This document shows, piece after piece, positions 11,864 through 54,614 of a stretch of 64,000 nt of DNA. Source of the stretch: Mustelus asterias (taxonomy: Eukaryota); contig NC_135823.1 of NCBI RefSeq assembly GCF_964213995.1, positions 48,918,001-48,982,000 of the forward strand, in the 5' to 3' direction. Each line of letters starts with the position of its first letter. Positions within the stretch are counted from its first letter, which is position 1. The notes under the pieces are model-generated. The model ran no database searches, had not been told where the DNA came from, and saw only the letters and a list, made by a program, of their open reading frames with translations. Both the position numbers and the translations under genes were made by a program.

Positions 11864-12318
11864 CTTATGGACGAAATGGAGAACATAAGAAAATTAGGGG
11901 CATGAATAATTTATTCGGTATTTCAAGCCTGTTCTGCCCTTCAGCTCAATCGTGGCTGATCTGCACCTCACTCCATTTAGTTGCCTTTGCTCCCTTCCAT
12001 GAAAATCTATCCACTAAAGCAAACTACTGCCAACACTGGAAGTCTGAAATAAAAACGGAAAAAACAGACGGCATCTGTGGAGAGAAGCCGAATTCACGTT
12101 TCAGCCCGATGACCTTTCATCGGAACAAAATTTCAGCCTTGAACCTCAAATGTTCCTGGAGAATTCTAGATTTCTACTGGACAAGAAAGGTTGTGCTGCA
12201 AGAAATGCATCCTAGAGTTCAATGTGTTCAGTTTAGACTACATTAGCAGGAAACTTCTGCTTGTTGCTCATGAACTGTGTTCGCCCATTTTTATATATAT
12301 ATGTATATATAGACATTA

Positions 12319-13021
12319 TGTGGAGATGCCGGCGTTGGACTGGGGTAAGCACAGTAAGAAGTCTCAGGTTAAAGTCCAACAGGTTTATTTGGTAGCAAAT
12401 ACCATAAGCTTTTGGAGCACTGCTCCTTCGTCAGATGGAGTGGATATCTGCTCTCAAACAGTGCACAGACACAGAAATCAAGTTACAGAATACTAATTAG
12501 AATGCGAATCTCTAAAGCCAGCCAGGTCTTAAAGGTACAGACAATGTGGGTGGAGGGAGCATTCAACACAGGTTAAAGAGATGTGTATTGTCTCCAGACA
12601 GAACAGCTAGTGAGATTCTACAAGCCCAGGAGGCAAGCTGTGGGGGTTACTGATAATGTGACATAAATCCAACATTCCGGTTTAGACCATCCTCATGTGT
12701 GCGGAACTTGGCTATCAGTTTCTGCTCAGCGACTCTGCGCTGTCATGTGGATCTCACTAGCTGTTCTGTCTGGAGACAATACACATCTCTTTAACCTGTG
12801 TTGAAAGCTCCCTCCACCCACATTGTCTGTACATTTAAGACCTGGCTGGCTTTAGAGATTCGCATTCTAATTAGTATTCTGTAACTTGATTTCTGTGTCT
12901 GTGCACTGTTTGAGAGCAGATATCCACTCCATCTGACGAAGGAGCAGTGCTCCGAAAGCTTATGGTATTTGCTACCAAATAAACCTGTTGGACTTTAACC
13001 TGGTGTTGTGAGACTTCTTAC
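12319..13021. mobile_element. Penelope-like retroelement remnant with inverted pseudo-LTR arms
   Basis: ~260-bp inverted arms (~12356-12616 / ~12752-13022). The spacer encodes a GIY-YIG C-terminal remnant on the minus strand (QRRVAEQKLIAKFRTHEDGLNRNVG). TSD TATATAGACATTA at 12306-12318 and 13022-13034. Confidence 0.85.
12929..12965 (+). ncRNA. Minimal hammerhead ribozyme motif in a Penelope pLTR
   Basis: ccat-CTGACGA-a-ggagc-agt-gctcc-GAAA-gct-t-atgg: catalytic core, stem II, stem I and palindromic AGCT helix III. Confidence 0.72.
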
Positions 13022-14167
13022 TATATAGACATTAGCCAGTGGTCACGCTTTCCCAATCTGTGAGTGCATTCAAAATATAGATTTTTGGACAGTGACTATT
13101 TTATTTTGTTTGAACCAATAAGTGACATTTTCCGTAACGAAGTTATGGGTTTGTGACAAGTGATAACTAACGATAATGAATAGGAAGGGCACCATTAAAA
13201 GCGATTGGCAAACTAAAGAGATTTAAAGATGCATTACCTGCTATTTTTACGCAACTGAGTTGTTACGATCTGGAATGCACTGCCTGAACGAATAGTGGAA
13301 ATAGATTCAATATTAACTTTCCAAAGAAAGTGGAGTTATATCCTTACTTAAAAAGGAAAGATTTGCAGGGCAATGAGAGAGCAGGGAAGTGGAACTAAAT
13401 GGATAGACTGAATGGCCTTTGTGTTGTATGATTCTGAGTGCTTGTGAAATAAGCCTCAAAGTTAATTAAAGATAGCTGCAAAAGGCAATACTTTAAACAC
13501 CCATTGATTTTAGATATTCTCTCACCGTTCTGGTAGTGCAGGTTCTGTTAACAACGCAAATGACTAACTGATACCAAGTTTTCTGAAGGTTCCTGCACTT
13601 CAGCTGACCAGTTCAATCACTGGCAAATCGTTCATCCTAAGCAATGATTTAAATGAAGTATGAATAACATTGGGTTCATGCCAGCACAGCAGGGCATGAA
13701 CCCAATTGAACCAATTGTTCTTTCCAGTCTGGTTTCCTATCTGATCATAAACTCTAAGTAATTTCTCTTGGAGCTGACTGCCATTGATATGCAGTGAATT
13801 AAAACTCATGTGGAATAGATCATTTGGCCCTTTGAGTCTGTTCAATAAGACGTCAACTCACCATCCCCACACCCCTTGATTCTCTTAGTACCCCAAAAAT
13901 TATTAACCTTTCTTGAATATACTCTATGACTGGGATCCACAGCTCTGAGATAGAGAATTCCTTAAATTCACAAACCTTTGTAAAGACATATCTTTCATCC
14001 CAGCCCAAATCACCTATCACTTATTTTGAGACTGTGACCTTAGTTCCAGAATCCGTAGCCCATCAAACCCCCAAATAATTTTATACATTTCATCAAGTCA
14101 CCTATCATTCATCTCAATTATAGGCCTGGATTCTTCAATCTCTCTTTCAGATTGCCTGTCTCAGTAC

Positions 14168-51154: not shown

Positions 51155-53423
51155 TATGCTTCCACTGCCTTTTGACGAAGGGGGTTCTAAAGTCTCTGAA
51201 CCCTCAAGAAAAAAACCTCTTCTCATCTTTATCTTAAATGGGTGACCCCTTATTTTTAAACAATAACCCCTAGTTGTATATTCTCCCACACAAGGAAACA
51301 TCCTCTCCACATCCACCCTGTGAAGACCCCTCAGATCTTATATGTTTCAATCAAGTCGCCTTTTACTCTTTTAAACTCTAGTGGATACAAGCCTAGCCTG
51401 TCCAAACAAAAGACACCTGCTTTCATTCCTACATAATTGCCCTTATTTAAGTCTTGGGCCCACTTTTCTCTCCCTCAAACTGAATGTAGAGTTCAAGCAT
51501 ATTATGATCACTGCTACCTAGGGGTGCCTTCAACATGAGGTTATCAATTAATCCTATCACATTGCACAATATTAAGTCTAGTATGGCCTGCCCTCTGGTT
51601 AGCTCCAGAACATGTTGTTCTAAGAAACTATCCCACAAACATTCTATGAACTTCTCATTTCGGCTATCTTTGCCCATTTGACTTTTCCAGTCTGTATCTA
51701 GATAAAAATCCCCCAAGATTATCGCTGTACTTTTCTGACAAGCTCACATGATCTATTCCTTTATACACTGTCTTACCATGTAGTTACAATTAGGGGGGGC
51801 TGCACACTACTCCTACAAGTGACTTCTTGCCTTTATCATTTTCATCTCAACCCATACCGCTTCTACTTCCTGTTTTCCTGAACTTGGGTCATCCCTCTCT
51901 AATGCACTAATACCATCATTAATTAGTACAGCCACCCCTCCACATTTTCCTCACTTCCTGTCCTTCCATAATGTCATGTACCCTTCAATATTCAGGTCCC
52001 AATCTATGTCATCCCACAACCATAGTGACTAAACCATGGGTGAAACTTCTAGGACAGATGTGACAGTTTTCCACTGAAGCAACTGAGTGAAAACTGGGAG
52101 GTCTAATTCTCGGTTTATGAACCACATTGCTCAGCCTTGACGGTTTGCATTCCACATATAGCACTGGCACCAATCCCAGTAGTGCTCAATCATATTATTC
52201 AGTGGGAGTATTCAATCAATTCAAGGCCAGTACGTGTCCCTATAACCTTCAAATTTTTGCATTTAAAGTGGAGTGGAGTGGCTTGTGCACCAGGATTGTC
52301 CGGGCTCTTTGTGTCATCATCTATCCATGCATAATGATAGGACCCTTGCCTCCAAGTCAGATAAGTTCAAGTCTCACTTCAGATTGGAGCACAAAATCCA
52401 GACTGATACTCCAGAGGGAATGTTGTACTGTTAGAGGTGTTATCTTTCCAATGAGTAATTGAACGGAGACCCTGTCTGGTCTAGTTGAAACTATCCCTTG
52501 ATACTATTCAAAGTAAAGCAGAATAGTTCTTCTTGGTATCCTGCCAATAATTATCTCTTAACCAACATCACTAAAATGGATTACCTGGTTATTATCACAT
52601 TTCTGTTTTTGGGACCCTGCTGTACAAAATTAGCCAAAGTGTTTCCTCATTACAACAGTCACTGCACTTCATAAGTAATTAATTAACCATGAAGCATTTG
52701 AGGGATTGGAGGGCCGAAGGGCCTGTTTCCTGTGCTGTACTGGATGCCCTGAAGATGTGACAAGGGCTATATCAATGCAAGTTCTTTCTTAATTATTTCA
52801 TTCAATTAATGTACCTGTTTTTCAAGCTGGAAATATTAGCAAATCTTGATGCTCCGATTTGTGAGATAACAGGGATCAGAACAGGCCATTCCAATCATGC
52901 AAAATTCAAACAAAAGAAAACAGTCAATAATATATAGGCACAGCTTTATAAAAGAGACTTCACTTCAAAAGTATTTTAGCTAAAAATCTAGGTTGATAAT
53001 CAAGCACAGTACAAACGGAATTGCCATCCTTTGGATGAAACATTGAAATGAGACACCATCTGCCTTCTTAGGTAGAAGTAAAAAATGCAGTTGTGCTTTT
53101 CAAAGAAGAACAGGGGAGTTCTCCCCTGTGTACTAGGCCAATATTCATCCTTCAAAGAACACCTAAGACAGATAATCATGTTGTTTTGTGGAAATTGGCT
53201 GCAGTGTTTCCTACATTTCAACAGTGACTGCACTTCAAAAGTACTTAATTGGCTGTAAAGTGCCTTGGGTGGCTTGAAGTTGTGAATGTGCTATGGAAAT
53301 GCATGTCTTTCTTTCTTCTGTAAGGCTGTGCTACCTGTGGTTAGGCGACTGGTTTTCCAAGACTGAAGATGGTCTTTGGGTTGTAATTCTGCTAACTTAT
53401 TCAGTGATGCTATAGAGAGTACA

Positions 53424-53897
53424 TGATGTGGAGATGCCGGCGTTGGACTGGGGTAAACACAGTAAGAAGTTTAACAGCACCAGGTTAAAGTCCAACAGGT
53501 TTATTTGGTAGCAAAAGCCACACAAGCTTTCGGAGCTCCAAGCCCCTTCTTCAGGTGAGTGGGAATTCTGTTCACAAACAAAGCATATAAAGACACAAAC
53601 TCAATTTACATGAATAATGGTTGGAATGCGAATACTTACAACTAATCAAGTCTTTAAGAAACAAAACAACATGAGTTGTTTTCACACTCACGTTGTTTTG
53701 TCTCTTAAAGACTTGATTAGTTGTAAGTATTCGCATTCCAACCATTATTCATGTAAATGGAGTTTGTGTCTTTATATGCTCTGTTTGTGAACAGAATTCC
53801 CACTCACCTGAAGAAGGGGCTTGGAGCTCCGAAAGCTTGTGTGGCTTTTGCTACCAAATAAACCTGTTGGACTTTAACCTGGTGTTGTTAAACTTCT
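53424..53897. mobile_element. Penelope-derived fold-back element
   Basis: ~40-bp tail plus ~213-bp inverted arms (~53463-53675 / ~53686-53899); TSD TATAGAGAGTACA at 53411-53423 and 53898-53910. Confidence 0.87.
53805..53841 (+). ncRNA. Minimal hammerhead ribozyme motif (mirror copy on the minus strand at ~53521-53557)
   Basis: cac-CTGAAGA-a-ggggct-tgg-agctcc-GAAA-gct-t-gtg. Confidence 0.72.
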
Positions 53898-54614
53898 TAT
53901 AGAGAGTACAGACAGACCATTCATCCCATCCCAATAGCCCTTCAACTAGAGCTCTCAATTTTAAATCTCATTTTCCTGTATATTGTCCAAAATTGGTTAT
54001 AGTCTTTGTTGGGGATCTTCTACACATAACTGTCGCAGGGATGAATGATACAGGGGAGAGGAGAGGGCAGCCTCCCCGGAAACAACATCAGTGTGGAGCT
54101 GTCAGGCGCCATGCAGACCTGCCCTGCAGCCATAAAGCACTGCAGGGCAAACTAATGAGGGTGAAGTGGGACTTCTAACTGCCTCACCTGCCCTCTGGAG
54201 CTGCCAGCCAACAGAGTGGGCTAACAGGTCCATCAATGCCAGCTTGAGTAGGTAAGGGAGAGGGGAGGGGGTTGGTTTATGGAAAAGGGGGGGTTGACTT
54301 AAGGGGGAGATACCCCGTGATTAGCAACAGGCAGCCCCAAAAAGCAACCATTCCTCCCTCACCACCTGCCCAGCCTTCATGCATTTGAGTGAAAATAATC
54401 AGCCTTCCTGCTCCTGCCTGGCTGCACACACCAAACATTTTATAGCATAGGCAGCGTATTGTCAGAGTCAATTGACTTGATATCAAGCCTGATTCACCCT
54501 TGATTATTTGTTTAAATATGATGGGTGGGCTGCCGTATTATGGGGGTGAGGTCAGTGGTGGGATTGGTGCCCACCCAATTTTGCCTACAGGGGCTCATAA
54601 AATTCAGCCCACAA

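What the first reader, a model, noticed from the sequence alone, without database searches (positions are those of the whole stretch)
12306..53910. Family of short palindromic, hammerhead-bearing Penelope derivatives with co-varying stems (best candidate system)
Seen: three independent insertions (12319-13021, 41964-42229, 53424-53897) share an architecture of a ~40-bp unique tail, inverted arms and a ~13-bp TSD. Their interiors are only partly shared, yet each keeps CUGANGA...GAAAGCUU. Compensatory changes occur in stem I (cat/atg vs cac/gtg) and stem II (ggagc/gctcc, ggggc/gctcc, ggggct/agctcc), and N7 varies (C, U, A). Helix III is the palindrome AGCU, consistent with dimer-dependent cleavage. 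Known: minimal hammerheads and inverted pLTRs are described for Penelope-like elements, so the parts are not new. Inference: these are either repeated truncation-inversion products or a non-autonomous, retrozyme-like family. Because of the symmetry, a ribozyme is encoded whichever strand is transcribed.
Basis: partly seen in the sequence, partly recalled or inferred. Interest (0 to 1): 0.7.

Follow-up and report, generated by a model that had tools for sequence, protein, structure and literature searches.

The report
Shark Penelope palindromes record ribozyme cuts
These three mirror-image repeats are separate, shortened insertions of a very abundant Penelope-type jumping gene, a known layout and not a new self-spreading family, but over a thousand sister copies begin exactly at the predicted cut site of the element's tiny ribozyme, which likely records that ribozyme cutting RNA in the living animal.

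Summary
In detail: three insertions with exact 13-bp target duplications, head-to-head arms, a 35-39-nt tail on one arm, and five intact of six minimal hammerhead cores. The 'non-autonomous retrozyme family' reading fails. All three map wholly onto the 3' end of a 3.0-kb Penelope-like element with intact 892-aa RT/GIY-YIG ORFs in this genome; copy 1 still carries the ORF's last codons. Each junction occurs once in 3.68 Gb. The family has at least 149,177 terminal repeats. This layout is in print. Stem covariation is real but rests on one two-sided change. In a read-through transcript the ribozyme is predicted to be locked in the hairpin. What is of interest lies in the wider family: in one subfamily 1,148 arms start exactly at the predicted cut site, against 125 and 95 at control positions, and the peak follows the site in other subfamilies. 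This likely records in vivo self-cleavage, which I did not find reported in print. The scan noted this footprint before, in this genome and in others.

The parts
12306..12318 (.). Copy 1 left target-site duplication (13 bp)
12319..12749 (-). Copy 1 tail-bearing arm: last ~33 codons of the PLE ORF (stop at 12647-12649), pLTR, tail at 12319-~12353; 92% to full-length unit L076, starting 439 nt from the unit's 3' end
12406..12434 (-). Copy 1 hammerhead motif with G12>A (predicted inactive)
12751..13021 (+). Copy 1 tail-less inverted arm (unit positions -306 to about -38)
12933..12961 (+). Copy 1 intact minimal hammerhead core, predicted cut after 12961
13022..13034 (.). Copy 1 right TSD
41951..41963 (.). 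Copy 2 left TSD (13 bp)
41964..42092 (-). Copy 2 tail-less inverted arm (unit -172 to about -40), hammerhead core 42050-42022
42093..42229 (+). Copy 2 tail-bearing arm (unit -140 to 0), hammerhead core 42103-42131, tail 42191-42229
42230..42242 (.). Copy 2 right TSD
53411..53423 (.). Copy 3 left TSD (13 bp)
53424..53676 (-). Copy 3 tail-bearing arm (unit about -250 to 0), tail 53424-53462, hammerhead core 53554-53524; 96% to full-length unit L077
53686..53897 (+). Copy 3 tail-less inverted arm (unit -253 to about -39), hammerhead core 53808-53838
53898..53910 (.). Copy 3 right TSD

Best explanation
The three repeats are independent, 5'-truncated, head-to-head insertions of the 3' end of an autonomous Penelope-like retrotransposon of this genome, each likely built anew at its landing site by the element's own reverse transcriptase and endonuclease. 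SHOWN: identity with full-length units, unique junctions, two fixed outer ends (tail end and about 36 nt inside it), a variable centre, 12-13-bp TSDs, arms of matching subfamily. INFERRED (about 55%): the endonuclease nicks both target strands about 13 nt apart. Each 3' end primes a cDNA, one at the tail end and one about 36 nt upstream, usually on the same RNA. The two cDNAs stop at similar points and are joined by end-joining with short microhomologies or templated inserts. INFERRED (about 70%): in a small share of events the template had already been cut by its hammerhead, so the arms start at the cut site. The hammerheads were kept under selection in the source elements; in the inserted palindromes they are passengers, predicted to be locked in a long hairpin.
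For: Mapping: copy 1 92% to L076, copy 3 95-96% to L077, copy 2 87-88% to L077, whole length accounted for except 0-15 nt at the centre. L076 and L077 hold 892-aa ORFs with RVT_1, a CX4CxxC linker and a GIY-YIG-type core with two internal cysteines (read from the sister ORFs printed; GIY-YIG Pfam hit E 0.0015, below cut-off). Junction uniqueness 1/1/1. Positional sample on contig C1: 47 of 62 tail ends have an inverted partner. Of 42 kept (5 dropped as nested or unrelated partners), lengths run 148-2,591 bp, TSDs are 12-13 nt in 26 and 10-16 nt in 38, and the tail is 33-38 nt in 28. Arms near-equal in 23 of 38 against 7.8 when permuted. Ribozyme type is the same in both arms in 22 of 24. Cut-site footprint: 1,148 arms break at position 0, 363 at +1 (369 expected from chance matches), 125 at +3, 95 at +6. 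In samples, 34 of 87 and 29 of 67 arms end at 0/+1; 30 of 79 and 15 of 49 with no microhomology to a partner arm. The peak moves with the site (12 versus 10 nt from the anchor). Such arms carry the tail about half the time (18/16, 15/14), and the partner arm ends at or 3' of the site in 46 of 50 cases with a partner found. In vitro, a Poseidon PLE protein cuts and extends both strands and starts at two RNA sites that bound the tail (PMC11167929).
Against: No experiment and no RNA-end data. Twin priming and fold-back predict much the same genomic products. Arm-to-arm identity (mean 97.1%) is no higher than identity to the nearest other copy (97.4%, 31 insertions), so 'same RNA' is not shown by private variants. 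The symmetry count sets arms equal whenever the spacer is under 25 nt. The +3 and +6 control patterns exclude A at some flanking positions while junction flanks are A-rich, which inflates the 10-fold ratio; my rough estimate (no call) is 4-7-fold after allowing for it. About 14 of the 23 arms at +1 in the copy-1 type share one 4-nt microhomology hairpin. Five arms counted at 0 are ambiguous (0 or -2). No genome-wide control was possible 3' of the site. More arms end at the ribozyme's front edge (25 of 76 arm ends at 111-145 nt from the tail end) than at the cut site, and none of the three window copies ends at the cut site. In Anolis no RNA-seq reads began or ended at the site, and cleavage was dispensable for insertion in vitro (PMC11167929). 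No full-length element of copy 2's own subfamily was retrieved; L026 links that pLTR type to 351 codons of ORF.
Confidence: 0.88

Rival explanations
1. A non-autonomous, retrozyme- or MITE-like palindromic family copied as a unit through its own RNA.
For: Short TSD-flanked units are common (26 of 42 are 350 bp or less). One centre recurs 437 times with up to 1 mismatch. Two neighbouring copies share a 49-nt centre exactly.
Against: Window junctions are unique. The recurrent centre has the tail left 15, right 14, both 1 of 30 and spans several subfamilies. The identical pair lies 2 kb apart with different TSDs and the tail on opposite arms, which fits local gene conversion. There are no head-to-tail hammerhead repeats in the three copies. 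Sizes grade continuously up to full-length elements with inverted ends.
Confidence: 0.04
2. Fold-back route to the same structure: one cDNA primed at the tail end snaps back and copies itself, the endonuclease resolves the hairpin about 36 nt inside the end, and the centre is later trimmed.
For: Near-equal arms in 23 of 38. Centres often sit at short self-complementary motifs. Self-priming was proposed in PMC3846280 and endonuclease resolution of the tail in PMC8557442 (passages).
Against: The tail-less arm is the longer one in 9 and the tail arm in 6 of 15 asymmetric cases, and tail-less arms end at the cut site as often as tail arms. Both need extra trimming under fold-back. A few insertions have one arm ending at the cut site and the other running through it (4 of 50, one of them a mis-scored variant) or arms of two ribozyme types (2 of 24).
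Confidence: 0.3
3. The pile-up at the predicted cut site is not cleavage but a reverse-transcriptase stall at the folded ribozyme core, a transcription start, or a microhomology hotspot.
For: Minimal hammerheads cleave poorly in vitro (PMC4209133). A 4-nt microhomology explains many copy-1-type cases. A broader peak at the ribozyme's front edge shows that other stops exist.
Against: Single-base sharpness with +1 matching the chance expectation. The peak persists without microhomology (30 of 79, 15 of 49) and without a nearby partner arm (9 of 35, 7 of 22). It tracks the site across three different downstream sequences. A stall would be expected at a stem's 3' edge (about -3 or +8), which is inference.
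Confidence: 0.28
4. The palindromes were retained or homogenised for a host function (ribozyme or hairpin RNA).
For: Arms are 98-99% alike.
Against: Arm identity equals identity to other young copies. One of six cores is dead. The ribozyme is predicted to be masked in the hairpin. Copy number exceeds 100,000.
Confidence: 0.02

Closest known systems
EN+ Penelope-like element insertions with inverted pLTR, tail and TSD (Pen2a_Av, PMC3846280; general scheme in PMC8557442 Fig. 2)
   Same: 5'-truncated copy with an adjacent inverted truncated copy, 30-40-bp tail on one end, TSD, palindromic centre; single RT + GIY-YIG ORF in full-length copies.
   Different: Very high copy number and many miniature units. 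TSD mode is 12-13 bp (8-10 bp in the rotifer examples read). The tail ends at the A of the ORF's ATG instead of including ORF codons.
Minimal hammerheads (min-HHR) of metazoan PLEs (Cervera and De la Pena 2014, PMC4209133)
   Same: CUGANGA core, extra nucleotide before stem II, G10.1-C11.1, short stem I, palindromic 15.2-16.2, many sequence families per genome. That paper already reports pairs of min-HHRs 100-700 bp apart on opposite strands.
   Different: At least 118,538 motifs here against about 4,000-9,000 reported there for coelacanth and Xenopus. A genomic footprint at the cut site is not described in the parts read.
Poseidon_Ac (PAc) in vitro system (Frangieh et al. 2024, PMC11167929)
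   Same: Two start sites bounding the tail, both strands cut, hammerhead in the pLTR region.
   Different: Penelope/Poseidon clade, whose ORF starts inside the hammerhead. Here the linker has the CX4CxxC motif and the ORF starts at the tail end. No in vivo cut ends were seen in Anolis RNA-seq.
Non-LTR retrozymes (PMC7229834; bioRxiv 10.64898/2026.07.22.740005)
   Same: Short, non-coding, type I hammerhead, PLE pLTR ancestry.
   Different: Retrozymes are head-to-tail repeats with two or more same-strand ribozymes that release circles. These copies are head-to-head with one ribozyme per strand and unique junctions.
R2 element HDV-like ribozyme (PMC3774820, search listing only)
   Same: Precedent that a ribozyme cut defines the 5' junction of an inserted retroelement.
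   Different: There the cut defines the full-length element. Here cutting would yield about 100-nt stubs, a minority by-product.

Membership tests
EN+ Penelope-like element (derivative) | [quoted passage not shown] | tested here: met
   892-aa ORFs in L076/L077 with RVT_1; GIY-YIG hit weak (E 0.0015); homologues carry PF00078 and some PF01541
EN+ Penelope-like element (derivative) | pLTRs in partial tandem or inverted arrangement | tested here: met
   L077: inverted copy, partial tandem, ORF, pLTR; window copies map to this pLTR
EN+ Penelope-like element (derivative) | 30-40-bp tail at one end and a TSD | tested here: met
Neptune/Nematis clades | [quoted passage not shown] | tested here: met
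   motifs read in the ORFs printed; definition from PMC8557442
Neptune/Nematis clades | RT phylogeny placing it in Neptune | not tested
   no named reference proteins in hand; 'Neptune-type' rests on the motif only
Minimal type I hammerhead (min-HHR) | Conserved core with stems I and II and NUH triplet (H not G) | tested here: met
   254 of 363 pLTR anchors have the core (matched by pattern); position 17 U 175, A 75, C 3, G 1; 144 of 144 cells paired in 18 types
Minimal type I hammerhead (min-HHR) | Statistically significant covariation | tested here: inconclusive
   1 of 8 pairs changes on both sides, 2 on one side; 0/500 shuffles reach the score but 423/500 reach the pair count, and relatedness is not controlled
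Minimal type I hammerhead (min-HHR) | Self-cleavage as a dimer or with protein help | not testable with these tools
   indirect genomic footprint only
Non-LTR retrozyme | Head-to-tail tandem of at least two same-strand hammerhead units | tested here: not met
   one motif per strand in each copy
Non-LTR retrozyme | Unit-length monomer amplified as such | tested here: not met
   unique junctions and continuous sizes
Non-LTR retrozyme | Circular RNA expression | not testable with these tools
   no raw RNA reads listed

The most novel reading that the evidence does not exclude
The genome holds a fossil record of two open steps of Penelope transposition. The minimal hammerhead cleaves its RNA in the germ line (over a thousand arms start at the cut base), and one protein dimer primes two cDNAs from the two target nicks on the same RNA, which makes the mirror-image copies with a one-sided tail.
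Probability: 0.4. Interest if true: 0.7.

Novelty: new member of a known kind. Interest (0 to 1): 0.45.

Why it matters
The three repeats themselves are ordinary by-products. The family is useful because two questions about Penelope-like elements are stated as open in the papers read: whether their minimal hammerheads cut in vivo, and how the inverted ends and the one-sided tail arise. With more than 100,000 young copies, several ribozyme variants and intact ORFs in one genome, both can be tested by counting junctions, and the intact ORFs offer a second in vitro system from a clade other than Poseidon. Tens of thousands of near-perfect hairpins may also be a large source of double-stranded RNA in shark introns (inference, untested).

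Tried and rejected
Rfam scan: no hammerhead family hit; mir-2566 hit rejected as a plain hairpin. Free folding of the isolated ribozyme regions gave no significant z-scores (-0.71, 0.58, 0.30), as expected for such short stems, so it is not used as evidence. PDB sequence search of the ORF: 0 hits. Private-variant test for 'both arms from one RNA': uninformative. Recurrent centre as a unit-mobile subfamily: rejected. First truncation tally in the positional sample was too small and confused by a subfamily missing from the references. An extra G before cut-site starts as a cap signature: dropped, since by eye it mostly comes from the partner arm. Sequencing runs: no RNA holder listed and only assembled contigs, so no reads were laid. 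R-scape was not available. Own-findings look-up by sequence gave nothing. Literature searches found no paper reporting PLE copies starting at the hammerhead cut site or twin priming for PLEs. The library lacks most subscription journals, and I did not see the supplements of PMC4209133, PMC11167929 or the 2026 preprint, which may include shark motifs.
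Full report
Observation. Each is flanked by an exact 13-bp duplication, has head-to-head arms of 252, 100 and 214 nt at 98-99%, and has a 35-39-nt tail on one arm. Each strand of each element holds one hammerhead motif; five of six cores are intact and the minus-strand core of copy 1 has G12 changed to A.

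What they come from. On the minus strand, the spacer of copy 1 translates to the C-terminus of a protein. The same peptide precedes the repeat in many genomic copies, and L026 holds 351 open codons of RT thumb, cysteine linker and GIY-YIG-type domain. A protein search of the own genome gave 27,452 candidates (150 scored), several with frames over 900 codons. L076 and L077 are full-length: an 892-aa ORF with RVT_1, then a 337-343-nt pLTR whose tail ends at the A of the next ATG. L077 shows the textbook arrangement of inverted copy, partial tandem, ORF and pLTR. All three window copies map entirely onto the last 140-440 nt of such units. The linker motif points to the Neptune/Nematis type (definition in PMC8557442, passages); I built no tree. 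The closest named proteins are from sharks (91%, 84%, 83%), so the host is inferred to be a shark. An exact 30-mer of the pLTR occurs 149,177 times and a hammerhead pattern 118,538 times in 3.68 Gb, with 0 control matches. The axolotl is reported with up to 120,000 hammerheads (PMC7229834, section heading), so the count is high but not without precedent.

Unit family or repeated by-product. Patterns spanning the three junctions each match once genome-wide with up to 2 mismatches. Among the 100 best-hit loci (94 with a tail anchor) breakpoints scatter; identical ones were seen in copies that also share their TSD, i.e. duplicated segments, and in one pair (L139/L140) whose far ends lie outside the fetched DNA. 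In a sample chosen by position on contig C1, 47 of 62 tail ends have an inverted partner. Of 42 kept after dropping 5 nested or unrelated partners, lengths run from 148 to 2,591 bp (median 283) and TSDs are 12-13 nt in 26. One centre is shared exactly by two copies 2 kb apart with different TSDs and the tail on opposite arms, best read as local conversion. One centre at the ribozyme's front edge recurs 437 times, but in 30 copies the tail is left in 15, right in 14 and on both sides in 1, and several subfamilies take part. It is a hotspot, not a lineage. The layout is in print: inverted truncated copy, 30-40-bp tail and TSD (PMC8557442, PMC3846280; passages) and pairs of minimal hammerheads 100-700 bp apart on opposite strands (PMC4209133; parts 1-2 of 4). 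Retrozymes are defined as same-strand tandem units (2026 preprint; part 1 of 5, passages and Discussion), a test these copies fail.

The ribozyme. Of 363 pLTR anchors found independently of the motif, 254 have an intact core. Variation falls on tolerant positions: N7 is C, A or U; position 17 is U 175, A 75, C 3, G 1; the pair next to the cut is C-G 159 or U-A 87. In 18 types seen in at least three contexts all 144 cells pair, but only one pair changes on both sides. The fold was therefore probably maintained in source elements, but the covariation claim rests on one event. In a transcript running through a palindrome stem II has a probability of 1e-16 to 1e-24, against 0.93-0.98 alone (equilibrium prediction), so the inserted copies are unlikely to be working ribozymes.

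How the palindromes form. Both outer ends are fixed (tail end, and about 36 nt inside it) and only the centre varies, often with microhomology or short templated inserts. Arms are near-equal in 23 of 38 cases against 7.8 on permutation; in the rest the tail-less arm is longer in 9 and the tail arm in 6. The Anolis protein cuts and extends both strands and starts at two RNA sites that bound the tail (PMC11167929; parts 1-2 of 4). I therefore favour two primers on one RNA joined at the centre (about 55%) over fold-back with later trimming (about 30%). Arm identity does not decide it (97.1% arm-to-arm, 97.4% to the nearest other copy).

A footprint at the cut site. There are 5,286 very short palindromes whose centre lies near the cut site. 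I selected truncated arms with two patterns (3,958 and 2,297 matches, of which about the first 95 and 70 listed places were fetched) and scored where homology ends. After dropping 7 and 5 arms that were point mutants, 34 of 87 and 29 of 67 in-range arms end at 0/+1 (uniform expectation 9-10%). Without microhomology to a partner the counts are 30 of 79 and 15 of 49. Genome-wide in the copy-3 subfamily, breaks number 1,148 at the cut base, 363 at +1, 125 at +3 and 95 at +6; 369 is expected at +1 from chance matches. The peak follows the site in subfamilies with different downstream sequence and spacing. Where a partner arm was found it ends at or 3' of the site in 46 of 50 cases, with none found within 330 nt in 15, as expected if both arms were bounded by the same cut RNA end. 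Against this: control patterns are biased by A-rich flanks (my rough correction, no call, leaves 4-7-fold); about 14 copy-1-type cases share one 4-nt microhomology; five arms are ambiguous between 0 and -2; more arms stop at the ribozyme's front edge; and Anolis RNA-seq showed no such ends. I put in vivo cleavage at about 70%. It affects a minority of copies, is not what builds the palindromes, and none of the three window copies shows it. R2 offers a precedent for a ribozyme cut fixing a 5' junction (PMC3774820, search listing only).

Novelty and verdict. The finding as given is a new member of a known kind. The cut-site footprint and the twin-priming reading were not found in print in searches, within the library's limits and without supplements. 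I reached both before opening the scan's notes by words; those notes show that other agents reported the same in this genome and in other shark and ray genomes. They are unchecked repeats and not independent support. Hammerhead numbering and the NUH rule are applied from general knowledge and PMC4209133. Interest 0.45.

Noticed in passing
window 42048-42056 and 53552-53560 (+), and mirror positions: The antisense strand of the ribozyme's 5' side reads as a perfect 5' splice-donor consensus in the copy-2 and copy-3 subfamilies (not in copy 1's), so intronic copies could be exonised.
   Followed up: no
L076:3915, L077: The tail ends exactly at the A of the ORF's ATG, and many insertions continue into ATG(A) as microhomology with the TSD.
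   Followed up: partly
contig C1 sample; pattern: Arm ends are densest 111-145 nt from the tail end (25 of 76), at the ribozyme's front edge; cause (RNA start or RT stop) unresolved.
   Followed up: partly
G000:C1:460649 and 462708: Two separate insertions 2 kb apart share an identical ~150-nt middle with tails on opposite arms, probably gene conversion.
   Followed up: yes
G000:C1:1272608, 1333279; L266: Rare insertions with arms from two ribozyme subtypes, and one with tails on both arms; useful for mechanism tests.
   Followed up: partly
window 880-3903 (+): 1,007-codon open frame with AP-type endonuclease and RT domains, a young LINE ORF2.
   Followed up: partly
window 16038-19677 and 37070-40078: LINE fragments forming long inverted pairs about 20 kb apart (72-87%), with RT/EN domains.
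   Followed up: partly
window 32728-34032 (-): 433-codon open frame with no Pfam hit.
   Followed up: no
window 4625-4817, 36097-36427, 61124-61289, 62090-62402: Dispersed SINE-like repeat family at 75-85% identity.
   Followed up: no
L143-L146; L105 and L108: Identical insertions with identical TSDs on different contigs or 6 kb apart: segmental or assembly duplicates, not new transpositions.
   Followed up: yes
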